A DNA stretch of 59,088 nt from the IMG/VR virus record IMGVR_UViG_3300043673_000060. One strand, written 5' to 3'. The notes under the pieces were generated by a model, which worked only from the letters and a program-made list of their open reading frames with translations, searched no databases and had not been told where the DNA came from. The DNA comes from an uncultured virus (IMG/VR IMGVR_UViG_3300043673_000060). Taxonomy: Duplodnaviria; Heunggongvirae; Uroviricota; Caudoviricetes. Shown one piece after another: positions 1,938-59,088 of this stretch (positions within the stretch are counted from its first letter, which is position 1; the number at the start of each line of letters is the position of its first letter). A program made the translations under genes and the position numbers.

Positions 1938-2193
1938 GTCTCCACCGCTTGCCAGGTGGAGCTTCGTTTCACCCACCCTGCTCGGAATCCGCACGCAGGC
2001 ATGGGCCCGGTCTCCACCGCTTGCCATGTGGAGCTTCGTTTCACCCCAGCAGGACCTCGGGATCGACCACCCGAGTCACCTCGTCTCCACCGCTTGCCAT
2101 GTGGAGCTTCGTTTCACCCTCGTCCTTGCCGACGCCGTTGTACGCGATGATGATCTTGTCTCCACCGCTTGCCATGTGGAGCTTCGTTTCACC
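1938..2193 (-). CRISPR. CRISPR array 1 (no adjacent cas gene): 4 repeats of 36 nt, 3 spacers (36, 37, 39 nt)
   Basis: GTCTCCACCGCTTGCCA[G/T]GTGGAGCTTCGTTTCACC at 1938, 2010, 2083 and 2158; the leader copy lies on the right side. Confidence 0.97.
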
Positions 2194-2389
2194 AGGTCCC
2201 GCAGGACCCCAATCATTACGCGCCATTGCTGGCCATTGCGCGAGCGGTCGCCATTCTCGCCAACTTCTCGTCGCGCATTCGCCTCGCGCGCTCCCACCTG
2301 CTTTCCTTCTTGTCTCCGTTTTCGTTCGCGTTTTCGTCCTCGCGAGCGCCTGCCAGCACTTTCGCATCGCCCGGCCGCTCGCGCCAGCG
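2194..2389 (-). repeat. Copy of the CRISPR leader / 3' end of the cas12m-like gene
   Basis: Near-identical reverse complement of ~20409-20605; 2194-2280 is identical to 59002-59088. Confidence 0.93.
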
Positions 2390-10762: not shown

Positions 10763-10927
10763 TACGTGCCTGGTCTCCACCGCTTGCCAGGTGGAGCTTC
10801 GTTTCGCAGAAGCAAGTCACGCAGAAACTCCCAATCGGACAGTAGCTTTGGCTGGCCGCTCCGGTACAGCGTGTCGCTGACTTTGCGAATCACGAGGCCA
10901 GAGTCGAGAACGAACGCGTCAGGCATG
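10763..10927 (-). pseudogene. Truncated ORF with a tyrosine/dual-specificity phosphatase-like N-terminus, running into the solitary repeat
   Basis: My translation: MPDAFVLDSGLVIRKVSDTLYRSGQPKLLSDWEFLRDLLL, then repeat-encoded residues and a stop. LYRSGQP is typical of DSP/PTP N-termini. Confidence 0.45.
10773..10808 (-). CRISPR. Solitary CRISPR repeat
   Basis: GTCTCCACCGCTTGCCAGGTGGAGCTTCGTTTC matches 33 contiguous nt of the array-2 repeat; no neighbouring repeat. Confidence 0.9.
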
Positions 10928-13833: not shown

Positions 13834-14048
13834 GCGCGGGAGTATAAGCCAGCCAGCTGGCTGCTTCGAGCCTTACTCGCCGCCTGAGTCCACCCATTCC
13901 GCGCACGCGTCGCGGAACCTGTCCAGGGCCAGCGTCCAGGCGTCCTGAATGGCCTTGTCCTCGTGGCGTGTGGAGCCGAGAGCGATGTTGGCCTGCGGGC
14001 GGAGAGCTTCGAGGACGGCGCTGGCGTCGAGGAGGGTCTGGCGGGCGC

Positions 14049-14288: not shown

Positions 14289-15310
14289 GACGCCGGCCAG
14301 TACTTCGCGAGGCTGGCGTTGACGTTCGCGATGGCGTCTGCCTGCGACTGGAGCGGATCGCCGCCCTGGATGCCAGCTGCGGCCCATGCCTGGGCGTTGG
14401 CAAGCGTCGCGGGGCCGGTGGGAACCGGCGTGGGCTGCGGGGCGGGGGCTGGAGGAGCGCCTGGGATCGGCAAACTGCCGCCAAAGTACGCGTTGAACGC
14501 CGTGATCATCGCCGCTGCGTTCAGGCCGCTCGGCGCGTTGCCGCTCTTGGTGTTGATCCAGTCCATCGAAACGCGCGTGGCCATGCCGCCGCCATTGGCG
14601 GGGATGAACCACGCAGCGACCGCATCCCACGTGATGAGCCCCAGCATGCCCCATGTCATCACCAGCAGGCCCCGCGCAGTCGCTGCGACGGCGAGGATCT
14701 TCGTCGGGTTGTAGCCGCAGCTCCCGATGCAATGCCCATTTTGCTGGTCCGCGTCGCCGGCCGCGACGTCCCAGACGAAGCCCGACTGCAGCGATGACAT
14801 GCTGTTGACGATGCTGTCGGGAATGCCGAACCACATCTTGATGTTGCCGAACTCCGCGAGCGCGTAGCGGACCTCGGCGACGTTGGTCGCGTCGACCATC
14901 GCCCAGCCCGCGTCCTTGCTGCCGTCCACGTAGCCGTTGGTCACGCGGTAGTTGAGATCCGCGACGGGGTCGGTACCCTGGTCCGTCGCTGGGTTGTTCG
15001 GGTCGAAGCCAGTGATCGCGCTGTAGTCAGCCAGCGTCTGCTCGTCGGTGTACGCGTAGAGAGCGTTCGCGTTGCCGGTGATCACGCCCAGATAGTGGGC
15101 GTCCTCCGCCTCAACGCAATCCCCGAAATTCGCATTTCCCTCGACGTCCTCGATGACCGAGATCGCTGCGGCCGACCAGTCGACCGTGTCGGGCGTCGCC
15201 GGGATCGCGTCCGCCTTGAGAAACATCTTGAGCTTCGGTGCGTGCAGATGCGCGTACGGAGACGGAAGCTTGCACGCGCCGATGACGCGCCCGTTGACGA
15301 TGCGGTTCAC
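14285..15310 (-). CDS. Papain/C1-like cysteine peptidase
   Basis: VDW, GNANFGDCV (Cys), NGHCIG..GY (His) and MTWG in the order found in papain-like peptidases. Confidence 0.65.
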   Translation of the reverse strand: MNRIVNGRVIGACKLPSPYAHLHAPKLKMFLKADAIPATPDTVDWSAAAISVIEDVEGNANFGDCVEAEDAHYLGVITGNANALYAYTDEQTLADYSAITGFDPNNPATDQGTDPVADLNYRVTNGYVDGSKDAGWAMVDATNVAEVRYALAEFGNIKMWFGIPDSIVNSMSSLQSGFVWDVAAGDADQQNGHCIGSCGYNPTKILAVAATARGLLVMTWGMLGLITWDAVAAWFIPANGGGMATRVSMDWINTKSGNAPSGLNAAAMITAFNAYFGGSLPIPGAPPAPAPQPTPVPTGPATLANAQAWAAAGIQGGDPLQSQADAIANVNASLAKYWPAS

Positions 15311-16083
15311 TTGCCACCCCCCGTCGTCGCCGGGCTCGTCGTCATCGCCCCAGGCCGCTTCACGATGTACGTCTGCGCCATCTGCGCCTGCGCAGGCGGA
15401 AGCTTGCCGCCGTCGAGCAGCAGCTGCAGGGCGTCCTCGACGAGCACGGTGACGTTCGCGCAGATCGCGTCCGTCGTCGCCGACCCGCCGAGCGCCTTGC
15501 ACACGTCGCTGTCGATCTGCGGCAGCCCGTCACCGGCCTGCAAGTCCGTCTCGACCACCTGCACGACGTTCACGAGCACCGGTACGGCCGGCTGGCTACA
15601 CGCGGTCTGCATCACGCCGAGGCCGATGAGCAGGAGAGCCGCCGCCGCAGCTGCCACGACCGGCTTCTTCATCGCCGCCAGCATTTGCCGCTGCGACTCG
15701 TTGAGGTTGGCGTGCACGTGGCGAGCGAGCGCGGGGGCCGCTCCGGCCGTCAGCGCCGCGATCCCGGCCAGAACGCCCTCGTAGATGGCCGTGCCGGTGA
15801 GCGCGACGGGCGTCTGCGAGGTAATGAAGCCCACGAAGCCGCCCAGGAAGGTCGTCAGCATGGTCACATCGGGCAGCCAGGTCTTCGGCGTGATCCAGCG
15901 ACCGAGCAAGGTGCCCGTCTGGATCCAGTTGGTCAGCACGCCGAGCAGCGCGGACAGGCCCATTATGACCCCCGTGGCCTCGCTCACGGGCGCTGGGGCC
16001 GTCCCCTGGGCGAATGCGGCCGTTCCGAAGGCGAAAACGACGAGGAAGACGGCGAAACCGAGGAGCCGGCGTGAGTTCTTCAT
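15307..16083 (-). CDS. Multi-TM membrane protein (holin-like), possibly with a lipoprotein C-terminus
   Basis: Signal-like N-terminus, 3-4 hydrophobic segments, MQTAC lipobox-like motif; adjacent to the peptidase. Confidence 0.55.
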   Translation of the reverse strand: MKNSRRLLGFAVFLVVFAFGTAAFAQGTAPAPVSEATGVIMGLSALLGVLTNWIQTGTLLGRWITPKTWLPDVTMLTTFLGGFVGFITSQTPVALTGTAIYEGVLAGIAALTAGAAPALARHVHANLNESQRQMLAAMKKPVVAAAAAALLLIGLGVMQTACSQPAVPVLVNVVQVVETDLQAGDGLPQIDSDVCKALGGSATTDAICANVTVLVEDALQLLLDGGKLPPAQAQMAQTYIVKRPGAMTTSPATTGGGK

Positions 16084-16506
16084 GCCCGGAGCCTACATCA
16101 GCCAGCCGGCTCGCTCAACTACCCGTGTGGGAGCGCCTCCGGAGGCCTGGTCTCTGCCGCCACATCCTCGTCCGTGACCCCCAGTTCGAAGTCTCTAGCG
16201 CCGAACCAGCTGAACATGCAGGGCCGTTCGTGTCGGTGCACGATCACCGACGACTGTGACGCCGCAATCGCCGCCATGGCCGCAGGCGAGCCCGGGATCG
16301 TGGCCGTGGCCTCGGCAATGAAGGCTTCGCGCTTCTCGGAGCGCGTCATCGGGCGTCCGTTGGGCGGCTTCGCGAGCGGATCCTTGACCAAGGGGACCGC
16401 GAGCGAGTCAACGACCTTGCCGGTGCAGTAACGCTCGGAGCCATCTTTCAGCGTACGGAACGTGTGGCCGCCGCATTTCGGGCAGACGAACATGACGACC
16501 CCCTTC

Positions 16507-16929
16507 CTACGCGCTCGCCCGCCGCTTGCGCGGCTTCTTCCCGCGTGCGGCGGACTGCGGCGAAGGGATGGATGGCTGCGGCGAAGCGGCTGGATCCGAC
16601 GGCGACGCCACTTCCCCATCTTTCGCCTCTCGCACGGCCTTCAGTAGCTCTTCGAGCGACTTGAGCCCGCCCGCCTCCCCGGCCTGCTCGAAGGCGCCGC
16701 GAATGCTGCTCATGAAGCGCTCCGGATCTTCGCCGAACGCCTGGCCGATCAGGGCCCCAAACGACGCTCCGATGCCTGTACCGATGGCCGTACGGACGCG
16801 TTTCGACACGTGGAGCACGCTGTCGCCCACGTCGCGCAGCTCGGTCACCGTGTACGGTTCGGGCGCGCGTCCACGCGCGCGCTTCTTCGTCGCCGTCTTT
16901 CGTTTCGCCGTCTTCGTCTTCGTGGCCAT
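16507..16929 (-). CDS. Hypothetical protein with basic termini
   Basis: MATKTKTAKRK N-terminus; 140 aa. Confidence 0.55.
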   Translation of the reverse strand: MATKTKTAKRKTATKKRARGRAPEPYTVTELRDVGDSVLHVSKRVRTAIGTGIGASFGALIGQAFGEDPERFMSSIRGAFEQAGEAGGLKSLEELLKAVREAKDGEVASPSDPAASPQPSIPSPQSAARGKKPRKRRASA

Positions 16930-17719
16930 GTTGATTTACCCTTCGTTGCGCTTGTTCGGTTCGTCGTAGTTCTTCGTCGCCGGGCAGACCGTGCCGACCG
17001 TGACGCGGAAGCCGCAGCGGCGGCACATGCCGATGAGCGTCCCCTGCAGCAGCCGGGGTCGTCGCAGTGACGCAAGTCGTGCGTCTGCATGCCCGCAGCC
17101 TTCAGATCCATATCGGACGGCATTCAGATCTCGACGCCTAGCTTGCGAAGCTCCGCGATACCAGCGGAAGTTGCGATGGCCGCCTCTGGGACGATGCGAC
17201 TGTACGTGGGCGAAATCGAGACGAGCCCGCGAGCCTCCAGATCGAGAAGGATCCGGTGGAGGTCGGTCCCATAGGCAGCGATTCGTGTCGTCTCGTATTC
17301 GTCTTCGCGCCCGTTCCACGCGCTCGGCGGCGTCGCGCACATGGCGAGCACACGTAGATCGCTCGCGGCCAGCGGCGCGTAGCTCGCTACGGCGCCCAAC
17401 GGGAGAGCTGCGGATGCCACGAGTACTTCCCTGCGTGTCGGCGACATTCTCCCCAGGTACCGCAGCCGCCCACGAAGCGCTAGTGCGTCAACACGAACCT
17501 CTCCACGGCCTCCGCGACCTGGACGTCCGTGAGCCGGCGAAGGTTCACGGCCACCTCGACGGGTTGGTCGGCGCCCACGCTGGCCTGCAGCGCCTCGTAG
17601 AGAAGCTGACCGAGCGTCAGATCTGGTCGCTTGAGCATCGAGCGACAGAGCCGATCGAGAAAAATGGCGACGGCGTGGTCGTTTCGCTGCGTGGAGCCCA
17701 TGCGCAGAGCCTAGCGCAT

Positions 17720-17839
17720 CTACGGCCACGCCACCGTCAGCGCCAGGGCGAGCAGGACGATGCCCGCGCCGATGAGGCCCATGGCGACGCCTGCTAGCGC
17801 CAGCGTCGAACCGTCGCTCTGTCTCCACTGCTTGCCCAT
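17720..17839 (-). CDS. 39-aa single-TM microprotein whose ATG lies inside a degenerate CRISPR repeat
   Basis: My translation: MGKQWRQSDGSTLALAGVAMGLIGAGIVLLALALTVAWP*. Confidence 0.5.
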   Translation of the reverse strand: MGKQWRQSDGSTLALAGVAMGLIGAGIVLLALALTVAWP

Positions 17840-17846
17840 GTGGAGC
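17821..17846 (-). CRISPR. Degenerate solitary CRISPR repeat (hairpin plus 3' end)
   Basis: GTCTCCACTGCTTGCCCATGTGGAGC versus GTCTCCACCGCTTGCC-ATGTGGAGC: 1 mismatch and 1 insertion; the CTCCAC/GTGGAG stem is intact. Confidence 0.75.
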
Positions 17847-17850
17847 CCCG

Positions 17851-18489
17851 CTAGGTAATCGTGTCCACGTCCACGTCATCCGCAATGACCGCCAGGACGA
17901 GTTCCTCGTGCAGCGAGATGTACTTGACCTTGTCGATCGTCACGACGCGCGCGCCGCGGTCCTTGTACAGGACGCGATCCCCGACTTTGGCGTCGGGCAT
18001 AGGCCACCGCGTTCCGTCCGCGCACGGCATGCCTGGACCGACGCGCACGACGCGCCCCGCGTACATGTGACTGTCGTCCTTGGCGGTCTTCGGGATGATG
18101 AGCAGTCCGCTACGTGTACGGCGATCGTCCGGCGCCTTGTCGGGCAGAATCAGGAAGCGGTCGGACAGGATCCGGTCCGGCACGCCGCCCGCGGAGCCCG
18201 CGTCATGCACGCCGATGATGTCCTCGTCGTTGATGACCAGCTGCTCCTCGCCCTCGACGACGATGTCGACGCCGCTCCACGGCCCGAACAGGACGCGCTC
18301 ACCCACCTGCACGTCGACGCTGGAGCGCCCGCCGTGCTTGATCTTGCGCCCGTTGCCCACCGCGCGCACGTCGCCATCGAGGCGCTTTTCCTGGGCGGAG
18401 TCGGGGATGTGCAGCAGGCCGCTGTCTGTCTTGTCCTTGGGCCTGGTTCGCTTGACGACAACTCGGTTGAGGAGGGGGCGCAGGTGCAT
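17851..18489 (-). CDS. groES: Co-chaperonin with two tandem GroES (Cpn10) domains
   Basis: LRPLLNRVVVK..TDSGLLHIPDSAQEK..G.V.AVG.G..V.VGERVLF, followed by a second similar domain. Confidence 0.9.
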   Translation of the reverse strand: MHLRPLLNRVVVKRTRPKDKTDSGLLHIPDSAQEKRLDGDVRAVGNGRKIKHGGRSSVDVQVGERVLFGPWSGVDIVVEGEEQLVINDEDIIGVHDAGSAGGVPDRILSDRFLILPDKAPDDRRTRSGLLIIPKTAKDDSHMYAGRVVRVGPGMPCADGTRWPMPDAKVGDRVLYKDRGARVVTIDKVKYISLHEELVLAVIADDVDVDTIT

Positions 18490-18631
18490 GGCTGCCTACG
18501 GGTAGCGCCATGACGGCGCGAGCGCAAGACCTGTTGTTAGCTTTCATCGTTCCCGTTGTCTCTCGATGCTAAAGTGCCGGTCTCTGCCGACTGTCGCGTC
18601 GAGTGTGCGAACCTGCGGGACTGCGAGGGCG

Positions 18632-18660
18632 TTGACAGGTGCCCATGGTGTCACTAGTTT
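18632..18660 (+). promoter_or_regulatory. Sigma70-type promoter of the cas12m-like gene, with a TGACA-N11-TGTCA inverted repeat
   Basis: TTGACA-N17-TAGTTT, ending 8 nt before the ATG at 18669. Confidence 0.7.
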
Positions 18661-18668
18661 GGCGATCG

Positions 18669-20582
18669 ATGAAACTCGTCTACAAGTTCGCCGCCGCCGC
18701 GCCACACGAAAATTCGGATCTCGTCGCCGCACAAATGCGGCTGGGGCACAAGTACCGCAACACGCTCACGGAGATCGAGCGCGGCAGGCGCGCCGCCGTG
18801 CGCGCCGCCGAGACGGAGATCGGCGACATGTCGGCTGCACGGAAGGCGTTGTCGGCCGCCGTGGCCGAGGTGGATCTGGCCATGGGCGCCATCGCGCGCC
18901 ACCGCGCTCACTCGCGCAAGCGCGACGAGCCGGCCGAGATGAGGCAAGCGTTCAAGACCGCCAAGGCGGCGAAGAAAGCGGCTGCTGACGCCTTCCGGGA
19001 AGTGCGAGACAAGCTACGTCTCGATCCGGGGCTCATCGACGCCAAGGATGCCATCGGCGAGCGCGCCAACGAACTGAGAGCCTCCGCGCGCGGCTACAGC
19101 GGCCTGGGCGAGCATGGCCCCCATTACGGCGCGTGGGGCACGTACTTGCTCGTCGAAAAAGCAGCCGGCGACTCCTTCAAGTCGATCGCGCTGTACGACA
19201 AGCGATCCGAGCCGGCCGATCCGAGCTTCGCGCGGTGGGTGGGCGAGTCGTCTGTCGGCGTTCAGCTGCAGGGCGGCCTCGCTGTCGCCGACGCCGTCAA
19301 CGGTGCCGACACGCAGGTCCGTATCACGCTGCCGGACGCGCGCGCATGGGACCGCCGTGGCCGCACGCACCGCGAATGCGAGCAGTTTGCGCGCCAAGCG
19401 CAGCTGTCCATCCGCATCGGGAGCGATGGACGCAGGCCCGTCTGGGCCAGTTGGCGCGTGGACATGCACCGACCGTTGCCAGACGGGGCCGTCCTCAAGG
19501 AAGTGGCCGTGCATTGCCGTAAGGAGGGGCCGTTTTCCAAGTGGTTCGCGACGTTCACGCTGGACGCGCCCGCAAAGGTGCGCGGCGGCTCGTGCGCAGG
19601 CTCCGGCACTGTCGCCGTGGACGTGGGATGGCGCGTCATGGGCGACGAGCTGCGGGTTGCTGGGTGGCAGGACGCGACCGGCGCCCGCGGGGAACTGCGT
19701 CTGTCCGCGAAAGACCTGGCCCTACTGCGCGCACCTGAAGCGCTGCGCTCGCAGCGCGACCTGCGATTCGACGTGGCTCGCGGGCGAGTCAACGCGTGGT
19801 TGCGAGCCAACAGCACGATTCTGCCCGACTGGCTCCGCCTCGCGTCCGCAAACATACACGCGTGGCGGGCAGAGTCGCGACTCGCGGGCCTGCACGGCCG
19901 GTGGCGCGGCGCCCGATTCGGTGGCGACGTCGAGATATACGACGTGCTCAGCAACTGGGCGTCGCGCGCCAGGCACGACTGGGCTGTCGAGAGTCAGGCG
20001 CGCGGACAGGCGCTGCGGCGTCGCCGCGAAAAGTACCGCGTATGGGCGGCGCAGCTGGCGACCCGGTACGACACGATTGTGATCGAGAAATTCGACAAAC
20101 GTAAGGTGGCCAAGAGGCCCGACACGGACGCGCAGTGCGCGCAGACGGCCGAGCAGATCGCCCGCGACGAGTATGCGCGTGCGCACCGCGTCCTGGCCTC
20201 CACGAGCGAGCTTTGCGGCTGCCTGGTGGATGCCGGGCGCAGTCGACAGAGCGCCGTGCTGGCCATGCCGTGCGCCGACACAACGAGAACATGTCCCACG
20301 TGCGGACTGGTCGAGTCGCGCGACGCGGCGGCGAGCGTGTCGCTCACGTGCGACTGCGGCGCCGCATGGGACCAGGACGTGGACGGGGCGCCGTCCATCC
20401 TGCTTGCACGCTGGCGCGAGCGGCCGGGCGATGCGCAAGTGCTGGCAGGCGCTCGCGAGGACGAAAACGCGAACGAAAACGGAGACAAGAAGGAAAGCAG
20501 GTGGGAGCGCGCGAGTCGAATGCGCGACGAGAAGTTGGCGAGAATGGCGACCGCTCGCGCAATGGCCAGCAATGGCGCGTAA
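18669..20582 (+). CDS. cas12m: Compact type V CRISPR effector, Cas12m (V-M / V-U1)-like, TnpB-derived, 637 aa
   Basis: RuvC-I VAVDVGWR (D318), RuvC-II IVIEKFD (E473), zinc finger CPTC..CDC, RuvC-III WDQD (D570). N-terminal QMRLGHKYRN, VGVQLQ and MHRPLP segments recall Cas12m. A CRISPR array starts 23 nt after the stop. Confidence 0.82.
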   Translation: MKLVYKFAAAAPHENSDLVAAQMRLGHKYRNTLTEIERGRRAAVRAAETEIGDMSAARKALSAAVAEVDLAMGAIARHRAHSRKRDEPAEMRQAFKTAKAAKKAAADAFREVRDKLRLDPGLIDAKDAIGERANELRASARGYSGLGEHGPHYGAWGTYLLVEKAAGDSFKSIALYDKRSEPADPSFARWVGESSVGVQLQGGLAVADAVNGADTQVRITLPDARAWDRRGRTHRECEQFARQAQLSIRIGSDGRRPVWASWRVDMHRPLPDGAVLKEVAVHCRKEGPFSKWFATFTLDAPAKVRGGSCAGSGTVAVDVGWRVMGDELRVAGWQDATGARGELRLSAKDLALLRAPEALRSQRDLRFDVARGRVNAWLRANSTILPDWLRLASANIHAWRAESRLAGLHGRWRGARFGGDVEIYDVLSNWASRARHDWAVESQARGQALRRRREKYRVWAAQLATRYDTIVIEKFDKRKVAKRPDTDAQCAQTAEQIARDEYARAHRVLASTSELCGCLVDAGRSRQSAVLAMPCADTTRTCPTCGLVESRDAAASVSLTCDCGAAWDQDVDGAPSILLARWRERPGDAQVLAGAREDENANENGDKKESRWERASRMRDEKLARMATARAMASNGA

Positions 20583-20605
20583 TGATTAGTGTCCTACGGG
20601 GACCT
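20409..20605 (+). promoter_or_regulatory. Probable CRISPR leader overlapping the effector 3' end
   Basis: CGCGAGCG (20415-22) and CGCTCGCG (20450-57) form an inverted pair, with a direct CGCTCGCG copy at 20552-59. The same segment precedes the other two arrays. Confidence 0.7.
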
Positions 20606-21201
20606 GGTGAAACGAAGCTCCACCTGGCAAGCGGTGGAGACCTCTCCCACTCGCCCTCTGCGCGCACCCCTGCGACGGGTGAAACGAAGCTCCACCTGGC
20701 AAGCGGTGGAGACGTACGGCAAGGCGCCGCGTCCTCGGCGGGCGACGGCTCGGTGAAACGAAGCTCCACCTGGCAAGCGGTGGAGACAAAGTGCCCGTGT
20801 GGTGTTACGACAACCTGGTCGCGGGTGAAACGAAGCTCCACCTGGCAAGCGGTGGAGACATGGCGTCGATGACCGCCGCTTCGGGGTCGGGAAAGGGTGA
20901 AACGAAGCTCCACCTGGCAAGCGGTGGAGACAAGATCGGCCGGACCAACGACCCGTGGCGACGGGCGGGGGCCTAGGTGAAACGAAGCTCCACCTGGCAA
21001 GCGGTGGAGACGGAGCCGCCGCCTCGAAGTGGATCGGCTCAGTCATGGGTGAAACGAAGCTCCACCCGGCAAGCGGTGGAGACCGTGACGAACGAGCGCG
21101 CCCGTGCCCGGTGCGGCGCCGGTGAAACGAAGCTCCACCTGGCAAGCGGTGGAGACGAGGCGACGGGTGAAACGAAGCTCCACCTGGCAAGCGGTGGAGA
21201 C
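20606..21201 (+). CRISPR. CRISPR array 2 (effector-adjacent): 9 repeats, 8 spacers (36, 38, 36, 36, 44, 36, 37, 9 nt)
   Basis: GGTGAAACGAAGCTCCACCTGGCAAGCGGTGGAGAC at 20606, 20678, 20752, 20824, 20896, 20976, 21048 (one variant base), 21121 and 21166; stem CTCCACC/GGTGGAG. Confidence 0.98.
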
Positions 21202-21286
21202 CGAAAAGCCCCCGAGAACGGAGCGGCGCCCCGCCACTTGACGAATGACCCAAACGTCACCATACTGATTGGTGAGGATGCCACCC

Positions 21287-21766
21287 ATGAAGCTCTGTCT
21301 TCTCTCCGTTTTTCTCCTGGTCGGTTGCGGTGGCGCCCCGTTCTCGGAGGGCCTTGTCGACCCCGTCGAGGCCTCGGCCGAGGCCGGCGACGAGGTTGGC
21401 GACCCGCAACCGGACGCGGGACGGGACAGCGCCCCGGAAGCCGGGGGAGGGGATTCTGCGAGCTGGGTGGCAGAAGCGGGGGAGGCGGGGTACGAGGGCG
21501 GGACCGTGGACAGTGGGGTCGACACGGGGGCGGTGGAGGCGGGGGTGGTATGTCCGGGGTATTTGCCGTGCAACGTGAATCGGAACTGGCCGGGCGCATT
21601 TTGCCTCGTTCGCACGGGCGGCGGCGACGACGACTTCACGGCGCCTGCCGCGTGCAACAGCTGCGGCACGTACACGTGCGCCTGCATCCTCGCGAACTCA
21701 ACATTCGCAGTCGGGTGCGCCTGTTCGCTTAGTAGCGACGGTGCCGCTATGGTCGTCTGCCCGTAA
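21287..21766 (+). CDS. Cys-rich lipoprotein
   Basis: MKLCLLSVFLLVGC lipobox, acidic linker, Cys-rich C-terminus; promoter TTGACG-N17-CATACT upstream. Confidence 0.75.
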   Translation: MKLCLLSVFLLVGCGGAPFSEGLVDPVEASAEAGDEVGDPQPDAGRDSAPEAGGGDSASWVAEAGEAGYEGGTVDSGVDTGAVEAGVVCPGYLPCNVNRNWPGAFCLVRTGGGDDDFTAPAACNSCGTYTCACILANSTFAVGCACSLSSDGAAMVVCP

Positions 21767-21861
21767 TCGTCGCGCTTCCGTTCGCCGTCCGCCCGCGCTA
21801 GGTGGAACGTTATGGGTGAGAAGACCGGGATCGCATGCGTGGTTCCCGCACTGGAGATCGG

Positions 21862-23910
21862 ATGAGCCAGTTCATCGACGGCCCGATGGGCCGTTTCGAG
21901 ATTCCGGACGCCCCCGAAGCCACGCGGCGCTGCTGCGAGGCGATTGCGCGCGAGGTCTGGGGCGGCGAGTACGCGCACGCCTCTCTACCTCACGCCCAAA
22001 TCGGTCGCGTGCTCGACATCGGGGCCGGCTGGGGCGCGTTCACTGTGTGGGCGCAGCGTGAATGGCCCGAGGCCGTCATCGAGTGCTACGAGCCGCATGC
22101 CGGGGCGTGCGCGTACCTGCGACGCAACGCCCCGAACGCCGTCGTGCACGAGACGGCCGTCACCGTTCAGCCCACGGCGACGCTTTCGGTGGGCGCCCAC
22201 GACACTCTCGACAACTGGGGAGCCCGTACCATCCAAGGTGTAGCGGGCGGCGAAGCCGTCGCCGTGTTGCATCCGCGCGATCTGCCGCCGTGCGACATCC
22301 TGAAATGCGACGCCGAGGGCGTGGAGCCCGAGGTGCTCGAAAGCTACCCGCACCTGGCCGGCGTGAAGGCCATCCTGTACGAGTTTCACAACGCCGTGCA
22401 CCGCGCGGGCCTTGCCGAGTTTTGCAGGCTTGCGGGGTTCCGGTGCCTGCGGGAGGTGCAGGTTGGCGCGCACAGCGCACTCCTCGTGTGGGGCCCCAGC
22501 CTCTGGGTCCGCGGCGTCGCGCGGCCGTCGATCCCGAAGACCATTCACCAGGTCTGGATTGGGCCGAAGCCTCCGCCCACGGCAATGATGGACACGTGGA
22601 AACGGATGCATCCCGACTGGCAGTACAAGCTCTGGACAGATGCGCGCGGCTGGATGAACCAGGACAAGATCGATTCCATGCCGGAACTCAACGGCAAAGC
22701 AGATCTGATACGCTACGAGATACTCGCGCGCTACGGAGGCGTGGCCCTGGATGCCGACAGCATCTGCGTGCGAAAGCTCGACGACGAACTGCTGGAACAC
22801 GAAGCGTTCGCGTGCTTCGAGAACGAGATCGCCCGTCCGGGACTCATCGCCTGCGGCGCGATGGGCGGAATTCCGGGCGCGCGCGTCTGGCGGGCCTGCG
22901 TGGAGGCAGGCAAGACCGCCGACACGACGCAGCCTGCGTGGCGTGGCGTCGGACCAGGCCTGCTCACGCGTGTGGCCGCCGCGATGGGGCCTGACGACCT
23001 CCACGTATTTCCAGCCCGGATGTTCATCCCGAAGCACTTCACGGGCATCGACGCGCCAGGCGAAGCGCCGATCTACGCCACGCAGCACTGGGGAAGCACC
23101 GTCGGTTACGACAAGCTGGTCGCTGCGCCGACGGACGGGCCCCTGGTGAGCATCGTCATCCCCTGTTACGGGCAGTCGCGCTGGCTTGGCGACGCGATCC
23201 GTAGCGCGAAGGCTCAGACCTACAAGAACACCGAGATCATCGTGGTCGCCGGCGACGACGAGTCAGCTGCCGTGGCGGAGCGGCACAAGGTCAAGGTCGT
23301 GCGCGACGGTGGCAATGGCCTCGCAAACGCCCGTAACGTGGGGATCGGCTACGCCGCTGGCGCATTCATCCTGCCGCTCGACGCCGACGACATGCTCGCG
23401 CCCAATTTTCTCGCCAAGACGGTGCCACTTGCCAACGACACCACCATCGTGGGCACGTTCATGCAGGAATTTGGCGAGCGACACCGCGCCATCGGTCTTC
23501 CGCGCTACGATCGGGCCCGTCTTCTCGACGAAAACCCGACGTTCGTGTGTTCCTTGTTCAGTAAGAAACTCTGGCAGGATGTCGGCGGCTACAATGTGGC
23601 GCCGTTCGGGTACGAAGACTGGTCTTTCTGGGTGTCCTGCTGCGAGCGCGGAGCCACGATCGTGCACGTCGAGGAACCGCTTTTTCGGTACCGTACGCAC
23701 GGCGGCCAAGACTCACTGTTCTGCCTGAAGCACGACGCCGTGCTGCGGGCCATGATTCGCCTGCTGCACCCCGATCTCGCCGGCGACAGCGCCCAGGGCG
23801 ACCTCGCCGTCGTACGCGCGATGCCCGAGGAGGTGCTAGCTCGCATGAAGCGCCGTCAGACCTGGTTTCCAGACAACGAAGCGTTACGTACGTGGCTGCA
23901 GCAAGGGTAA
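21862..23910 (+). CDS. FkbM-type methyltransferase + DXD (GT32-like) glycosyltransferase + GT2 fusion
   Basis: VLDIGAGWG and LKCDAEGVE; IPKTIHQVW..ADLIRYEILARYGGVALDAD; VSIVIPCY..GLANARN..PLDADD..EDW. Confidence 0.88.
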   Translation: MSQFIDGPMGRFEIPDAPEATRRCCEAIAREVWGGEYAHASLPHAQIGRVLDIGAGWGAFTVWAQREWPEAVIECYEPHAGACAYLRRNAPNAVVHETAVTVQPTATLSVGAHDTLDNWGARTIQGVAGGEAVAVLHPRDLPPCDILKCDAEGVEPEVLESYPHLAGVKAILYEFHNAVHRAGLAEFCRLAGFRCLREVQVGAHSALLVWGPSLWVRGVARPSIPKTIHQVWIGPKPPPTAMMDTWKRMHPDWQYKLWTDARGWMNQDKIDSMPELNGKADLIRYEILARYGGVALDADSICVRKLDDELLEHEAFACFENEIARPGLIACGAMGGIPGARVWRACVEAGKTADTTQPAWRGVGPGLLTRVAAAMGPDDLHVFPARMFIPKHFTGIDAPGEAPIYATQHWGSTVGYDKLVAAPTDGPLVSIVIPCYGQSRWLGDAIRSAKAQTYKNTEIIVVAGDDESAAVAERHKVKVVRDGGNGLANARNVGIGYAAGAFILPLDADDMLAPNFLAKTVPLANDTTIVGTFMQEFGERHRAIGLPRYDRARLLDENPTFVCSLFSKKLWQDVGGYNVAPFGYEDWSFWVSCCERGATIVHVEEPLFRYRTHGGQDSLFCLKHDAVLRAMIRLLHPDLAGDSAQGDLAVVRAMPEEVLARMKRRQTWFPDNEALRTWLQQG

Positions 23911-23917
23911 AACACAC

Positions 23918-24478
23918 ATGGGCATCGGCGAATTGCGTGGCTGGACCGACTTCCACGACATCTACAACGAGACCGCAGTGGCTGCGCGCGACGACTCGGT
24001 CCTGGTCGAGGTCGGGGTCGCCTTCGGATCGAGCATCGCGTACCTGGCACGCAGGCTCATCGACCTCAAGAAGCGCAGCGAACTGTATGCGGTCGACTCA
24101 TGGCCCATGGATCACACGACGTGGACCACGGATCCGTCGCTCGCGCTGCCCAAGGGAGCCTTCTACACGTTCTGCGCCGGCATGGTGCAGGCGGCTCCCG
24201 AGGAGCTAGAGCGGATCAACGTGATCCGGGCGCCTAGCGTCGCTGCAGCGGCGCTCATCGCGCGGCTCGGAGGCGCCGATTTCGTCTTCATCGACGCCGC
24301 GCACGACTACGACAACGTTAGAGCGGACATCGCGGCGTGGCTGCCGGTCATGCGCGCGGGCGGCGTGATCGCTGGACACGACTGCAACGCCGATCATCCT
24401 GGCGTCGTGCAGGCCGTACGCGAGCGGTTCGGGGACAGTTACCTCGTGCGCGGCAACAGCTGGTGGAAACAGCTCTAA
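23918..24478 (+). CDS. Class I SAM methyltransferase (Methyltransf_24-like)
   Basis: VEVGVAFGSS, FVFIDAAHDY and GGVIAGHD motifs. Confidence 0.85.
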   Translation: MGIGELRGWTDFHDIYNETAVAARDDSVLVEVGVAFGSSIAYLARRLIDLKKRSELYAVDSWPMDHTTWTTDPSLALPKGAFYTFCAGMVQAAPEELERINVIRAPSVAAAALIARLGGADFVFIDAAHDYDNVRADIAAWLPVMRAGGVIAGHDCNADHPGVVQAVRERFGDSYLVRGNSWWKQL

Positions 24479-24493
24479 ACGAGGGAACGATCC

Positions 24494-25966
24494 ATGACCG
24501 ATCCGGGCGAGATCTATACGGCCGCGTTCTACGCGGAGCATGCCGCTGGGCGAGACGAGTACAGGCGCGTCGCCGACGCGCTTCACGAGCTGTTCGGCGA
24601 CCTACACACCGTCGTCGACGTCGGCTGTGGGCCCGGCTTCGCCTTGCATCGACTGCAGGAGCTTGGCCATGATGTCCGTGGCATCGAGGGTTCGTTCCAC
24701 GCGCTCGATGTTTCGCCCATCAGCGACCAGATCAGCATCGCGGACATTACGACGCTGGAGGCCGAGACCTTCGAGAAAGCGGCGCTGGTCATGTGCACGG
24801 AGGTTGCCGAGCACCTGGACGCCGCTTACGCCGACAAACTGGTCGCTACACTCGCCGCGCTGGCTGAGACGGCCATCTACTTCACCGCGGCGCCGCCTGG
24901 CCAGGGCGGCCTCGATCACATCAACGAGCAGCCGCAGGAGTATTGGATCGAGAAATTCGACAAGGCCGGCTGGGTCCTGGATGCAGAACGGTCTGCTCAG
25001 CTGCGTGCGCGGCTCTTCGAGGTCATACAGACCCAAGTCTGGTATCCACTCAACTCGATGGTGTTCGTGCGGCGCGGCTGCACGCTCGCGGCCACGCCCA
25101 CAGTCGCGGCCACGGCCCCGGCGGACATCGCGGTAGCCATGGCTGTGCCGCTCTGCGGCTGGGATCCGGCCCGCATTGCATCGCGCGAGCGCCTCAAGAA
25201 GCAGCTCGGTCCTCCACCCGCGTGGGTCACGCCGAAGCTCATCGTCAGCGACCAGTGGGTCCACGTGTCCAGATGGTTTCGATCCGCCATCGACTGGGGC
25301 CTGGATCAGTCCGCGTCGCACTTCCTGCTCATGCAGGACGACGCGCGCGTGCCACCGGGCTTCTGGGAACACCTGCATGGCGTGATCGCGGCAAAACCGA
25401 ATCACGTCATCTCCCTGTACACGATCCATGTGGGCGCCAAGTCGATGGGTAACGCCGGCCTCAAATGGATCGCAACGATGGATCTCGTACCCGGCGTGGC
25501 GTGGCTGATGCCGATGGCCGTCTTGCGACAGATGCGACGCTGGGAAGAGACTGCGTTGCGGCCCGGCTACGAATTGCGGATGCCCGAGGACAGCCGCGTA
25601 GGCATGTTCTGCGCGGTGCACGCGCTGCCCATCCTGCAGCCCATACCGTCACTCGTCGAACACGGCGCTCCGGACGACAACCTGCCCAGCAACTACGGCA
25701 GCGACAAGCTCAACAGCCGTCGAGCGAGCCTCACGTGGAAGCAGGCGCCCATCCCCGCGCACTGGAACGGCCCCGCCATCTGGTGCGGACGTGGCTTCGC
25801 GGAGACGCCCGGATACGTCGCCCGCAACGTGCGCGAGTGGGACAACGATCTGATGACCCAAATTGAAAACGGGAGCCACCCTGCGCTCAGGGGGGCTCCC
25901 GCTCAAGGGATCGTCCCGTTCGTGGAGCCGGTGGAGCCGTCAGCGGCTACCAGTTCTGGATCGTGA
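24494..25966 (+). CDS. SAM methyltransferase fused to a GT-A-like domain
   Basis: VVDVGCGPG, CTEVAEHL and GQGGLDHINEQ; C-terminal LLMQDDA and SLVEH. Confidence 0.75.
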   Translation: MTDPGEIYTAAFYAEHAAGRDEYRRVADALHELFGDLHTVVDVGCGPGFALHRLQELGHDVRGIEGSFHALDVSPISDQISIADITTLEAETFEKAALVMCTEVAEHLDAAYADKLVATLAALAETAIYFTAAPPGQGGLDHINEQPQEYWIEKFDKAGWVLDAERSAQLRARLFEVIQTQVWYPLNSMVFVRRGCTLAATPTVAATAPADIAVAMAVPLCGWDPARIASRERLKKQLGPPPAWVTPKLIVSDQWVHVSRWFRSAIDWGLDQSASHFLLMQDDARVPPGFWEHLHGVIAAKPNHVISLYTIHVGAKSMGNAGLKWIATMDLVPGVAWLMPMAVLRQMRRWEETALRPGYELRMPEDSRVGMFCAVHALPILQPIPSLVEHGAPDDNLPSNYGSDKLNSRRASLTWKQAPIPAHWNGPAIWCGRGFAETPGYVARNVREWDNDLMTQIENGSHPALRGAPAQGIVPFVEPVEPSAATSSGS

Positions 25967-30260: not shown

Positions 30261-30287
30261 GTGGCGGCGACGCTTTGCGCCGATCCG

Positions 30288-58261: not shown

Positions 58262-58297
58262 GTCTCCACCGCTTGCCATGTGGAGCTTCGTTTCGCC
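58262..58297 (-). CRISPR. Solitary repeat with its own promoter, in the 5' leader of the SSAP-like operon
   Basis: 35/36 match to the repeat; 100 nt from array 3; 62 nt upstream of the ATG at 58199. Confidence 0.9.
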
Positions 58298-58299
58298 CC

Positions 58300-58328
58300 A
58301 AACTAACAACCAGTCGCGCGCCCGTCAA
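58300..58328 (-). promoter_or_regulatory. Sigma70-type promoter firing into the solitary repeat
   Basis: Minus strand TTGACG-N17-TAGTTT, ending 2 nt before the repeat; same -10 as the cas promoter. Confidence 0.7.
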
Positions 58329-58397
58329 GCGCTCAGTTCGCGCCCGCCGCCATCGTCCGTGCGGGCCGCGGATGGCATGCGGGGTCGCGCATGCATC

Positions 58398-59001
58398 GTC
58401 TCCACCGCTTGCCATGTGGAGCTTTCGTTTCACCTTGTCGACGCAGCGCCACGCGCAGGTCTCCACCGCTTGCCATGTGGAGCTTCGTTTCACCAAGCGG
58501 TGGAGACAAGCAGACGGCGCTCCTCCTGGTTGTCTCCACCGCTTGCCATGTGGAGCTTCGTTTCACCGCGCGCGCGTTGGGACGCCCACCGCGCACCTCC
58601 ACGTCTCCACCGCTTGCCATGTGGAGCTTCGTTTCACCCTGCCAGCGCAGATCGCTCGTGGTCTTGTGATCGGGTCTCCACCGCTTGCCATGTGGAGCTT
58701 CGTTTCACCCTACACGACCACCTCGTGACGGCAACGCGCCCGCGCGTCGTCTCCACCGCTTGCCATGTGGAGCTTCGTTTCACCATGCCGCGCCGAGCGG
58801 GTTCGCAGCCTTCCTGAAGTGTCTCCACCGCTTGCCATGTGGAGCTTCGTTTCACCGCCAGACCGACGAGGACGAGCGGGCATCGCGAGTGAGTCTCCAC
58901 CGCTTGCCATGTGGAGCTTCGTTTCACCGGGTCTCCATCGCCGACGCGCAAGAGGCGCAGCCCGGGTCTCCACCGCTTGCCATGTGGAGCTTCGTTTCAC
59001 C
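58398..59001 (-). CRISPR. CRISPR array 3: 9 repeats, 8 spacers (24-39 nt)
   Basis: Repeats at 58398 (37-nt variant), 58459, 58532, 58603, 58674, 58749, 58821, 58893 and 58966. Confidence 0.98.
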
Positions 59002-59088
59002 AGGTCCCGCAGGACCCCAATCATTACGCGCCATTGCTGGCCATTGCGCGAGCGGTCGCCATTCTCGCCAACTTCTCGTCGCGCATTC
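59002..59088 (-). repeat. Leader / effector 3'-end copy, cut by the window edge
   Basis: Identical to 2194-2280. Confidence 0.9.

What the first reader, a model, noticed from the sequence alone, without database searches (positions are those of the whole stretch)
18669..21201. Virus-borne Cas12m-like effector serving a distributed network of three arrays and four solitary repeats
Seen: one 637-aa TnpB-derived RuvC protein and three arrays with the same 36-nt repeat spread over 57 kb, with no shared full-length spacer. Four isolated repeat copies also occur, and there is no cas1/cas2/cas4 in the window. Known: characterised Cas12m proteins process their own pre-crRNA and bind DNA to block transcription rather than cut it. 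Inference: the element runs a minimal multi-locus CRISPR system that borrows host adaptation machinery, targets competing elements through the arrays, and may regulate its own genes through the solitary repeats.
Basis: partly seen in the sequence, partly recalled or inferred. Interest (0 to 1): 0.92.

Follow-up and report, generated by a model that had tools for sequence, protein, structure and literature searches.

The report
Soil virus carrying Cas12m CRISPR system
An uncultivated soil virus carries one small Cas12m-type CRISPR protein and three separate spacer arrays, two of which arose by copying the tail end of the gene together with the start of the array; it is a new example of a known kind of system.

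Summary
The gene and the arrays are real. ORF 18669-20582 (+, 637 aa) is a Cas12m (type V-M, formerly V-U1) effector by profile, by sequence match to solved Cas12m structures and by predicted fold. Its RuvC residues are of the D-E-D class.

A 36-nt repeat occurs 24 times:
- array 2 (20606-21201), 23 nt after the stop codon;
- array 1 (1938-2193);
- array 3 (58262-59001);
- one true orphan (10773-10808).

The "four solitary repeats" are not confirmed. Two of them are decayed tail members of array 3.

The extra arrays therefore arose by duplication of a gene-end/leader/repeat module. They then gained their own spacers, flanked by a new repeat variant.

No cas1, cas2 or cas4 lies in the window. 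No protospacer was found anywhere I searched. Nothing supports self-regulation by the orphan repeat.

The backbone is viral: six genes are collinear with 8 of 8 IMG/VR loci, three from terminal-repeat-bounded genomes rated complete.

Virus- and plasmid-borne V-M systems are already in print, and another complete virus (G402) also has three dispersed arrays plus an orphan. Verdict: new member of a known kind, moderate interest.

The parts
18669..20582 (+). cas12m (type V-M effector), 637 aa; an alternative GTG start at 18639 gives 647 aa
   Evidence: PADLOC Cas12u1 E 3e-75 over profile positions 4-532 of 533. PDB sequence hits: 23vw_A 1.8e-50, 8hhl_A 3e-20, 8pm4_A 6.9e-15. AF2 model pLDDT 89.8. 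Foldseek 8hhl_A TM 0.74/0.79 and 8pm4_A 0.73/0.76. D318, E473 and D570 plus CxxC...CxC are conserved in 41 sequences.
20409..20605 (+). Proposed leader of array 2: the last 174 nt of cas12m, including the stop codon, plus a 23-nt linker. This is the segment present in three copies.
   Evidence: Alignment with the flanks of arrays 1 and 3. Summed depth about 51 at the homologous place 2363, against about 16-17 in unique sequence.
20606..21201 (+). Array 2: 9 repeats and 7 regular spacers (36-44 nt). The last two repeats are only 9 nt apart.
   Evidence: A repeat hairpin at the 3' end of the repeat on this strand, -12.6 kcal/mol.
2194..2389 (-). Copy of the cas12m 3' end plus linker (untranslated gene fragment = leader of array 1). 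It starts 7 nt after the stop codon of the upstream gene 2397-2621 (-).
   Evidence: tblastn residues 591-647, 96% identity, E 7e-27. 2 substitutions in 174 nt; 3 substitutions and 1 indel in the 23-nt linker. The junction is spanned by a 151-nt record of run X3 from another study.
1938..2193 (-). Array 1: 4 repeats, 3 spacers (36-39 nt). The three leader-side repeats carry a C>A variant in the stem; the oldest repeat carries the array-2 form.
10773..10808 (-). [quoted passage not shown] It lies 110 nt after the stop of gene 10919-11464 (-) and about 390 nt before gene 9730-10380 (-).
   Evidence: No recognisable leader upstream: local alignment not above shuffles, 103 of 2000 reach it.
58459..59001 (-). 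Array 3, regular part: 8 repeats, 7 spacers (35-39 nt), all with the C>A variant.
58262..58434 (-). Decayed tail of array 3: a repeat with a 1-nt insertion (58398-58434), a 100-nt gap, and a repeat with 1 mismatch (58262-58297). It lies 62 nt before the start codon of gene 56766-58199 (-).
59002..59088 (-). Leader of array 3: 100% identical to the array-1 leader over all 87 nt; runs off the window end.
   Evidence: (family D6: 2158-2280 = 58966-59088, 100%).

Best explanation
This is a type V-M CRISPR-Cas12m system carried as an accessory module by an uncultivated soil virus.

A single cas12m gene is followed after 23 nt by its array, as in most of its relatives. The array's leader therefore overlaps the 3' end of the gene.

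A module of about 200 nt (the last 174 nt of cas12m, the linker and a repeat) was copied to two other places in the genome. Each copy then grew into an array of its own by ordinary leader-end spacer insertion. The Cas1-Cas2 that did this is encoded either outside the window or by the host.

By homology, Cas12m processes the transcripts of all three arrays. It uses crRNAs with a 5' repeat handle to bind PAM-flanked DNA of competing elements or the host, and silences that DNA rather than cutting it.

The scattered single repeats are by-products of repeat recombination and array decay. The orphan at 10773 has no recognisable leader and never grew.

Shown here: family membership, array anatomy, the duplication, viral backbone and single-copy effector. 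Inferred: leader function of the gene end, adaptation in trans, DNA binding without cleavage, and the targets.
For: Family:
- PADLOC Cas12u1 E 3e-75 over the full profile.
- Sequence matches to four solved Cas12m entries.
- Predicted fold TM 0.74/0.79 to Cas12m2 and 0.73/0.76 to GoCas12m; Cas12f and TnpB reach at most 0.39/0.58.
- 33% identity to the characterised MsCas12m plasmid gene.

Array next to the gene is a family trait:
- An array was detected in 25 of 43 viral loci.
- 44 of 61 loci with at least 300 nt of room have an array within 600 nt, with a median offset of 24 nt from the stop codon.
- The MsCas12m and Virus Rctr197k arrays lie on the gene's strand, and their repeats end in the same GAGAC stem-loop.

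Duplication:
-.
- The shared tail signature of arrays 1 and 2 (repeat plus the same 9 nt) shows common descent at both ends.

Growth after duplication:
- 17 regular spacers of 35-44 nt, none shared.
- All newer repeats of arrays 1 and 3 carry the C>A variant, while array 1's oldest repeat keeps the ancestral form.

One effector, real loci:
- Even depth of about 17x in run X1, about 51 at the triplicated segment and 16.6 inside cas12m.
- A record of another study spans the 2389/2390 junction.

Virus:
- Six window genes (29418-37429) are collinear in 8 of 8 IMG/VR loci, and GroES is found in 7 of 8.
- 5 of those records are 92-100% complete by CheckV, 3 with direct terminal repeats.

Binding without cutting in D-E-D, H-D-D and N-D-D Cas12m: PMC11013384 (passages read).
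Against: - No protospacer was found, so neither target nor PAM is known.
- No sigma-70-like promoter was found in the duplicated segment or beside the orphan. Transcription of arrays 1 and 3 may depend on read-through from upstream minus-strand genes.
- No RNA data.
- 62 kb of the contig is unseen, so cas1/cas2/cas4, a host-like array or further arrays may lie there. An X1 contig that joins a second copy of 8911-8997 to a repeat hints at one more copy outside the window.
- The protein keeps an intact D-E-D triad. Omura et al. (PMC10442227, passages read) leave open that such clades cut DNA.
- No terminase, portal or recognised capsid family lies in the window.
- In 76 relatives examined within 10 kb, none shows a distant copy of its gene end, so the duplication mechanism is not general.
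Confidence: 0.6

Rival explanations
1. Only array 2 works. Arrays 1 and 3 and the orphan are dead debris of segmental duplication and repeat recombination: they are not transcribed into useful guides and no longer acquire spacers.
For: The gene fragments beside arrays 1 and 3 are untranslated remnants. Array tails are irregular, with a 9-nt, a 24-nt and a 100-nt 'spacer' and a repeat with an insertion. No promoter-like site was found next to them.
Against: The repeats of arrays 1 and 3 are intact (0 mismatches in 11 of 12 regular copies) and the spacers are of regular length. Every spacer is unique and is flanked by a repeat variant absent from array 2, which needs insertions after the duplication. 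The leader copies differ from the gene by only 2 of 174 nt.
Confidence: 0.15
2. The three arrays are an assembly artefact. On this reading they are strain variants of one locus, or a wrong join at the repeat of at least 123 nt shared by the array flanks, placed at different sites by the metagenome assembler.
For: 2158-2280 and 58966-59088 are identical, long enough to confuse a short-read assembler. The best DNA holder, X1, may be the source sample, so it is not independent.
Against: Depth in X1 is even at about 16-17 across 1801-20476. It triples at the shared segment (51 at 2363) and does not rise inside cas12m (16.6 at 20078). Each array has its own unique tail flank. The junction of the gene fragment with the unique upstream gene is spanned by a 151-nt record (2297-2447, 1 other letter) of run X3 from a different study. 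A swap of flanks between arrays 1 and 3 would still leave three leader-array junctions.
Confidence: 0.07
3. The carrier is a plasmid or a phage-plasmid rather than a lytic or temperate virus, and the system serves inter-plasmid competition as in described V-M loci.
For: V-M is reported as strongly enriched on plasmids (PMC11656645, passages read). 14 plasmid records encode relatives. The window has a ParB-like gene and no recognised terminase, portal or capsid family.
Against: A six-gene collinear block is shared with 8 of 8 IMG/VR loci. Three of the five records checked have direct terminal repeats and 100% CheckV completeness. There are PHROG matches to phage families and no relaxase, Rep or transfer genes among the 64 ORFs. 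The conserved 472-aa protein models as a beta-sandwich whose best matches, though weak, are virus capsid jelly rolls (PRD1 P3, Z 4.8).
Confidence: 0.12
4. The effector is an active nuclease. With its intact D-E-D RuvC triad it cuts target DNA like most Cas12 enzymes, so the virus destroys competitors rather than silencing them.
For: D318, E473 and D570 are conserved across 41 relatives. Omura et al. suggest that D-E-D clades might hydrolyse DNA (PMC10442227). The MV-1 preprint makes the same suggestion for its phage Cas12m (10.64898/2026.09.14.751636, passages read).
Against: All four D-E-D Cas12m proteins tested by Bigelyte et al., including MsCas12m (33% identical to this one), bound but did not cut dsDNA (PMC11013384). 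Restoring D-E-D in Cas12m2 did not restore cleavage (PMC10442227). The model has the long helical REC insertion typical of the binders.
Confidence: 0.2
5. The orphan repeat at 10773-10808 has been taken over for another job. It may make a regulatory guide or a Cas12m-dependent cut in the minus-strand transcript between genes 10919-11464 and 9730-10380. Read on the plus strand, it may act as a terminator hairpin between convergent genes.
For: Its stem-loop is intact (-12.6 kcal/mol, as in array 2). It lies within a co-oriented gene string. On the opposite strand every repeat scores as terminator-like, and array 1 begins 29 nt after the stop of the convergent gene ending at 1909. Standalone repeats with regulatory roles are known in other types (PMC10120712, passages read).
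Against: The 36 nt after it have no match in the window with 9 or fewer mismatches in 30 nt beyond chance level. No promoter-like site was found. The T tract is weak. No relative carries the same region, so conservation cannot be tested.
Confidence: 0.12

Closest known systems
Characterised type V-M Cas12m systems: MmCas12m2 (PDB 8hhl/8hio), GoCas12m (8pm4) and MsCas12m on Allomeiothermus silvanus plasmid pMESIL02
   Same: Same fold and domain order (TM 0.73-0.79). About 600 aa. A zinc-ribbon TNB domain. A 36-38-nt repeat with a 3' stem-loop ending in GAGAC. The array lies directly downstream on the gene's strand. No adaptation genes at the locus. D-E-D triad as in MsCas12m.
   Different: Only 20-33% identical. 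Carried by a virus rather than a plasmid or chromosome. Three dispersed arrays, two of them led by a copied gene end. No activity of this protein has been tested.
MvCas12m of myxophage MV-1 (bioRxiv 10.64898/2026.09.14.751636; passages read)
   Same: A phage-borne V-M locus with a compact D-E-D Cas12m next to an array of eight spacers, no cas1/cas2/cas4, and no protospacer found.
   Different: That protein has 610 aa and one array is described. The preprint's claim to be the first phage Cas12m is weakened by GenBank Virus Rctr197k, which has a 32%-identical homologue beside an annotated CRISPR, and by 43 IMG/VR contigs.
IMG/VR virus record G402 (locus L022; 80,138 bp, direct terminal repeats, 100% complete)
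   Same: A Cas12m homologue with one adjacent array, two further arrays 12 kb and 17 kb away, and a single orphan repeat, all with the same repeat. This is the same dispersed layout.
   Different: 31% identical effector and an unrelated backbone. All its arrays are on one strand. No copy of the gene end was seen beside the one distant array that lies in the fetched locus.
Phage-encoded miniature type V effectors CasPhi (Cas12j) and Cas-lambda
   Same: Small RuvC effectors of large phages, with no adaptation genes, self-processed crRNA and a repeat ending in a stem-loop.
   Different: Not the same family: sequence E 0.5 to Cas-phi3, fold TM 0.30-0.34. Those enzymes cut DNA.
Standalone repeat units and mini-arrays (regulatory crRNA-like elements; RNA anti-CRISPRs of phages)
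   Same: A repeat copy outside any array on a mobile element.
   Different: The orphan equals the element's own repeat, not a known host repeat. No partial complementarity to a promoter in the window was found.

Membership tests
Cas12m / CRISPR-Cas subtype V-M (formerly V-U1) | Sequence membership: full-length match to the family profile and to characterised members | tested here: met
   PADLOC Cas12u1 E 3e-75, profile positions 4-532 of 533. phmmer against PDB: 23vw_A 1.8e-50, 8hhl_A/8hio_A 3e-20, 8pm4_A 6.9e-15, 23vu_A 8e-7. Pfam alone gives only a sub-threshold TNB hit (22 bits against a cutoff of 26.3).
Cas12m / CRISPR-Cas subtype V-M (formerly V-U1) | Fold: bilobed, with WED, a long helical REC insertion, a split RuvC and a zinc-ribbon TNB; closer to Cas12m than to Cas12f or TnpB | tested here: met
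   AF2 model pLDDT 89.8, pTM 0.81. Foldseek ranks 1-4 are all Cas12m entries (TM 0.61-0.74 by query). The next hits are Cas12f/TnpB at TM 0.21-0.39 by query.
Cas12m / CRISPR-Cas subtype V-M (formerly V-U1) | CRISPR array beside the gene, about 36-nt repeat with a 3' stem-loop, no tracrRNA | tested here: met
   The array starts 23 nt after the stop codon. Hairpin -12.6 kcal/mol. Same layout in MsCas12m and Rctr197k and in 44 of 61 relatives. No anti-repeat outside the arrays at up to 7 errors.
Cas12m / CRISPR-Cas subtype V-M (formerly V-U1) | RuvC triad of one of the family's classes (D-E-D, H-D-D, N-D-D and others) | tested here: met
   D318, E473 and D570 (637-aa numbering) in an alignment of 41 sequences. 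They align with D/E/D of 23vw_A and with H/D/D of 8hhl_A.
Cas12m / CRISPR-Cas subtype V-M (formerly V-U1) | No adaptation module at the locus | tested here: met
   0 of 64 ORFs of the 59-kb window match Cas1, Cas2 or Cas4. The other 62 kb of the contig could not be read.
Cas12m / CRISPR-Cas subtype V-M (formerly V-U1) | PAM-dependent dsDNA binding without cleavage; transcription block; self-processing of pre-crRNA | not testable with these tools
   Known for members from PMC11013384 and PMC10442227. No assay or RNA data exist for this protein.
IS200/IS605 TnpB (transposon-associated) | About 400 aa, omega-RNA and IS ends, no CRISPR array | tested here: not met
   637 aa with a REC insertion. 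Array adjacent here and in 44 of 61 relatives. TnpB structures align at TM 0.30-0.36 by query. The only PHROG hit, 'transposase', covers just residues 460-596 at E 7e-6.
Cas12j (CasPhi) / Cas-lambda phage effectors | Sequence or fold membership | tested here: not met
   7odf_A E 0.5. Foldseek TM 0.30-0.34 by query.
Virus (Caudoviricetes-like or other) as carrier | Backbone genes shared with genomes that have viral termini and completeness | tested here: met
   Six genes collinear in 8 of 8 IMG/VR loci. 5 records checked: 92-100% complete, 3 with direct terminal repeats.
Virus (Caudoviricetes-like or other) as carrier | Recognisable hallmark genes (terminase, portal, major capsid protein) | tested here: inconclusive
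   None found by Pfam or PHROGs in the window. The conserved 472-aa protein gives only weak jelly-roll capsid matches (best Z 4.8). Half of the contig is unseen.
Regulatory crRNA-like element / mini-array | Spacer-like sequence partly complementary to a promoter or gene of the same element | tested here: not met
   No hit beyond chance for the 36 nt after the orphan or after the tail repeats, at 9 or fewer mismatches in 30 nt, within the window. The rest of the contig and the host were not searched.

The most novel reading that the evidence does not exclude
In V-M systems the functional leader (promoter plus integration signal) lies inside the last ~170 nt of cas12m. This gene-end/linker/repeat unit of about 200 nt would be a portable 'array seed' that a virus can scatter through its genome. 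Seeds that keep the leader recruit a host Cas1-Cas2 in trans and grow into independent arrays. Seeds without it stay as orphans that Cas12m may still bind or cut within viral transcripts. A virus would thus run a multi-locus, non-cutting CRISPR silencer with no adaptation genes of its own.
Probability: 0.15. Interest if true: 0.7.

Novelty: new member of a known kind. Interest (0 to 1): 0.42.

Why it matters
Cas12m is the compact, naturally non-cutting CRISPR effector now used for base and epigenome editing. Its natural biology has been described mainly on plasmids.

This locus, together with 43 IMG/VR contigs and a GenBank virus deposited in 2016, shows that a large and little-studied branch of the family lives on viruses.

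The copied gene end beside two of the arrays marks out, by a natural experiment, the roughly 200 nt that apparently suffice for an array to persist and grow. This makes the leader and the trans-adaptation question directly testable.

It does not change the known mechanism.

Tried and rejected
Searches for the repeat and for targets:
- Exact scans for the repeat in IMG/VR and in JGI metagenome contigs found nothing, so the rest of the 121-kb contig could not be fetched.
- No whole genome is held for the window. The record of L045 is not held.
- Spacer targets, all negative or at chance level:
  - the window itself;
  - 113 fetched loci, best hits exact 14-15-mers;
  - GenBank phages: none for array 3, and one 39-nt 85% hit at E 0.05 for array 2;
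  - plasmids: one 50-nt 82% hit at E 0.06 for array 3, none for array 2;
  - 401 genomes of the phylum of G001: 1 and 3 weak hits that have 7-12 mismatches over the full spacer and no common flank. One of them lies in ordinary coding sequence.
- Array 1 was not sent to the phage or plasmid collections.
- No host array with this repeat in those 401 genomes: 1 marginal 24-nt hit.

Leader, promoters and RNA:
- Leader-like sequence upstream of the orphan is not above chance: 103 of 2000 shuffles and 287 of 2864 genomic controls reach the score.
- The sigma-70 scan found one site, after array 2 at 21238-21266, and none in the leaders.
- Rfam: no family. tRNA: none.
- No RNA holder is listed among the public runs.

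Carrier and conserved proteins:
- The conserved 472-aa protein has no phage tblastn hit, no usable Atlas hit and no Foldseek hit at E 0.001 or better in PDB or BFVD.
- PHROGs on a related viral locus named only tail-fibre-like proteins.

Relatives:
- Copies of the gene end in relatives: 9 of 76 loci gave extra hits. Eight were to CRISPR repeats that the query overlapped. The ninth, L028, is a 49-nt local echo about 100 nt downstream.
The question was then put by reference to five whole viral records only.

Not available or not done:
- No phylogeny against TnpB or Cas12m clades was built, because no outgroup sequences were held.


Full report
**Observation**

The window (59,088 bp, 66.8% G+C) holds an ORF at 18639/18669-20582 on the + strand. 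The ATG at 18669 gives the 637-aa protein that the protein collection also holds, on a contig of 121,088 bp. The window is therefore about half of its record.

A 36-nt repeat matches 23 times with at most 3 mismatches, against 0.00 expected. One more copy with a 1-nt insertion turns up at up to 7 errors, and nothing else. The copies are distributed as follows:
- array 1 (1938-2193): 4 repeats;
- one isolated copy (10773-10808);
- array 2 (20606-21201): 9 repeats;
- array 3: 8 regular repeats at 58459-59001, plus two irregular tail copies at 58398 and 58262.

The 17 regular spacers are 35-44 nt long, average 70% G+C, and are all different.

**What the protein is**

Pfam sees only a sub-threshold TNB domain. 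Three other lines of evidence place it in Cas12m:
- The PADLOC Cas12u1 profile (V-U1, the old name of V-M) matches end to end at E 3e-75.
- Sequence search of the PDB finds four Cas12m entries: 1.8e-50, 3e-20, 6.9e-15 and 8e-7. Nothing else is significant, and Cas-phi3 is at E 0.5.
- An AlphaFold2 model from 41 relatives (pLDDT 89.8) superposes on Cas12m2 and GoCas12m at TM 0.73-0.79. Cas12f, TnpB, Fanzor, CasPhi and Cas-lambda stay at 0.2-0.4 by query.

The RuvC residues D318, E473 and D570 and the four zinc-ribbon cysteines are conserved in the 41-sequence alignment. The protein belongs to the D-E-D class of the family.

From passages of Bigelyte et al. (PMC11013384): D-E-D, H-D-D and N-D-D Cas12m proteins all bound PAM-flanked dsDNA without cutting, processed their own pre-crRNA, and protected E. 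coli from plasmids and phages. From passages of Omura et al. (PMC10442227): whether D-E-D clades cut is left open.

**Orientation and family layout**

Read on the + strand, the array-2 repeat ends in a 7-bp stem-loop followed by two bases. This is the usual place of the type V handle.

The experimentally studied MsCas12m locus and GenBank Virus Rctr197k have their arrays on the gene's strand, and their repeats end in the same GAGAC stem.

Among relatives:
- An array was detected in 25 of 43 IMG/VR loci.
- Of 76 loci with a complete gene end, 61 have at least 300 nt of sequence downstream. 44 of those 61 have an array within 600 nt, at a median of 24 nt from the stop codon.

The array therefore has essentially no intergenic leader. 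Its leader must overlap the gene's 3' end, or the array is read through from cas12m.

**The new point: how the extra arrays arose**

In crRNA sense, arrays 1 and 3 lie on the - strand. Directly upstream of array 1 is a copy of the last 57 codons of cas12m, its stop codon and the 23-nt linker (2194-2389). It shows 96% amino-acid identity and 2 substitutions in 174 nt, plus 3 substitutions and an indel in the linker. The copy begins 7 nt after the stop codon of an unrelated upstream gene and has no start codon of its own at its beginning.

The flank of array 3 is 100% identical to that of array 1 for the 87 nt that remain before the window ends.

Arrays 1 and 2 also share their tail: the oldest repeat of array 1 has the array-2 stem form and is followed by the same 9 nt that separate the last two repeats of array 2.

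All other repeats of arrays 1 and 3 carry a C>A change at the top of the stem. This weakens the hairpin from -12.6 to -9.6 kcal/mol.

The simplest history has four steps:
1. A unit of gene end, linker and repeat was duplicated.
2. The leader-side repeat of the copy mutated.
3. The copy was duplicated again.
4. Each array then took up its own spacers at the leader end, each insertion copying the mutated repeat.

This implies spacer acquisition after the duplications. It also implies that about 197 nt upstream of the first repeat is enough for it.

**Is it an assembly artefact?**

A public soil run (X1, possibly the source sample) covers 1801-20476 evenly at about 16-17x. At place 2363, inside the copied gene end, the summed contig depth is 51. 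Inside cas12m (place 20078) it is 16.6. The gene end is thus present three times and the gene body once, which also supports 'one effector, three arrays'.

Logan contigs break exactly at the borders of the triplicated segment (records ending at 20428 and starting at 2360) and inside the orphan repeat.

A 151-nt record of a freshwater run from another study (X3) spans 2297-2447 with one changed letter. This is the junction between the gene fragment and the unique upstream gene.

One X1 contig joins a second copy of 8911-8997 (not present elsewhere in the window) to a repeat. This hints at a further repeat copy in the unseen part of the genome.

**The carrier**

Pfam and PHROGs name few genes:
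- a double GroES (17851-18489);
- glycosyl- and methyltransferases (21835-25966);
- RadC, SET, ParB and Fic domains;
- a beta-lactamase-fold protein.

There is no terminase, portal, capsid, relaxase or Rep.

Six consecutive genes (29418-37429) are nevertheless found, in the same order, in 8 of 8 IMG/VR loci fetched with the most conserved of them, and GroES in 7 of 8. Five of those records were checked: 92-100% complete by CheckV, three with direct terminal repeats, 69-79 kb, and none with a Cas12m relative.

The backbone is therefore viral, and the CRISPR module is an accessory of this particular, larger genome.

The conserved 472-aa protein models well (pLDDT 81). It finds only weak jelly-roll matches, the best being PRD1 P3 at Z 4.8, rmsd 7.4 over 165 residues. 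That is not enough to call it a capsid protein.

**Targets, adaptation, orphan**

No spacer matches the window, 113 related loci, GenBank phages, plasmids or 401 genomes of the phylum of a MAG that shares four genes with the window. Array 1 was not sent to the two public collections.

No array with this repeat was found in those genomes.

No Cas1, Cas2 or Cas4 is among the 64 ORFs. Adaptation in trans is a fair inference, but the donor (host, or the unseen 62 kb) is unknown.

The orphan lies 110 nt after a minus-strand gene and about 390 nt before a 2OG-Fe(II) oxygenase gene. Three checks give it no support as a functional guide:
- It has no leader-like sequence above chance.
- It has no promoter-like site.
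- The sequence after it matches nothing in the window.

I read it as a seed that lacks a leader. A role in transcript processing or termination is possible but unsupported.

**What is known already**

From passages of Koonin and Makarova (PMC11656645): V-M is strongly enriched on plasmids and is encoded by some prophages.

From passages of a September 2026 preprint (10.64898/2026.09.14.751636): a myxophage Cas12m of 610 aa with eight spacers, no adaptation genes and no targets, called the first in a phage.

My searches add the following:
- Virus Rctr197k (GenBank, 197 kb) has a 32%-identical homologue labelled 'similar to transposase' beside an annotated CRISPR. The two papers that mention this virus (search listing only) are about other subjects.
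- 43 IMG/VR contigs encode relatives.
- Dispersed arrays recur. One of five viral records searched whole (G402, complete, terminal repeats) has three arrays 12-17 kb apart plus an orphan. The other four have one locus each.
- A copied gene end beside a distant array was not seen in 76 relatives within 10 kb.

I found no paper describing gene-end copies as array leaders. This rests on the Cas12m search (88 papers, 30 listed) and one search on V-M, phage and mini-arrays. Supplements were not read.

**Verdict**

This is a genuine, well-supported virus-borne type V-M system with a neat record of how its extra arrays were born. It is a new member of a known kind. Interest is moderate.

Noticed in passing
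window 29418-37429 (-), especially 31142-32560: A block of six genes with no Pfam or PHROG family is collinear in 8 of 8 IMG/VR loci from 37-79 kb contigs; three of the five records checked have direct terminal repeats. Its most conserved member (472 aa, third-codon G+C 0.95) models as a beta-sandwich. Its best matches, though weak, are PRD1-type and other jelly-roll capsid proteins (Z 4.8 and below). It is possibly the unrecognised capsid module of an undescribed virus lineage.
   Followed up: partly
window 13780-13833, 26655-26708, 27269-27322 (-): Three genes begin with the same 18 residues, from an 85-nt DNA repeat family (D5), and then diverge completely. This could be a shared targeting or leader peptide, or a recombination hot spot.
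   Followed up: partly
window 58495-58531 (spacer 7 of array 3) and 58435-58458: One 37-nt spacer ends with 13 nt that are the reverse complement of the repeat's own 3' end, and the next spacer is only 24 nt. It looks like a piece of an oppositely oriented array taken up as a spacer, or a local inversion.
   Followed up: no
window 8911-8997 and an unseen place: In run X1 this segment has double depth (34 against 17). A contig carrying a C>T at 8941 runs from it straight into a CRISPR repeat. The window holds no second copy, so another repeat or array probably lies in the unseen part of the genome.
   Followed up: partly
G402 (record of L022): 41847-42178, 53805-54759, 60429-60458, 71803-72721: A complete 80-kb IMG/VR virus with a Cas12m relative has three dispersed arrays and one orphan repeat, all on one strand.
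   Followed up: partly
L114 (KX853510.1, Virus Rctr197k) 3944-5812 and 5846-7360: A GenBank virus genome carries a Cas12m homologue (32% identity, 93% coverage) annotated 'similar to transposase', directly followed by an annotated CRISPR of about 21 repeats.
   Followed up: partly
window 17851-18489 (-): A 212-aa protein with two Cpn10 (GroES) stretches, transcribed divergently from cas12m. GroES-like genes occur in 7 of 8 related viral loci.
   Followed up: no
all repeat copies, strand opposite to the crRNA: Read on the other strand, every repeat scores as an intrinsic-terminator-like hairpin with a T-rich tail. Array 1 starts 29 nt after the stop codon of the convergent gene ending at 1909.
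   Followed up: no
window 9730-10380 (-): A 2OG-Fe(II) oxygenase matching a PADLOC model labelled Cas-associated (E 4.7e-16) lies about 390 nt downstream of the orphan repeat. This is probably just the generic domain.
   Followed up: no
window 3096-3509 (-), 3932-6856 (-), 52472-52852 (-), 49222-51483 (-): Accessory genes unusual for a virus: a Fic/DOC domain, a 974-aa protein with a beta-lactamase-fold domain, a SET-domain methyltransferase and a 753-aa RadC-domain protein.
   Followed up: no
window 38765-38946 / 39389-39570; 7122-7276 / 8036-8190; 40551-40646: Two pairs of 155-182-nt direct repeats at 97% identity, and a 27-nt tandem repeat. Not examined.
   Followed up: no
runs X2 and X3 on window 1801-21800: Two freshwater metagenome runs from other studies hold scattered 151-nt records at 97-100% identity to the window, at low depth. 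A near-identical virus therefore occurs outside the soil sample.
   Followed up: no
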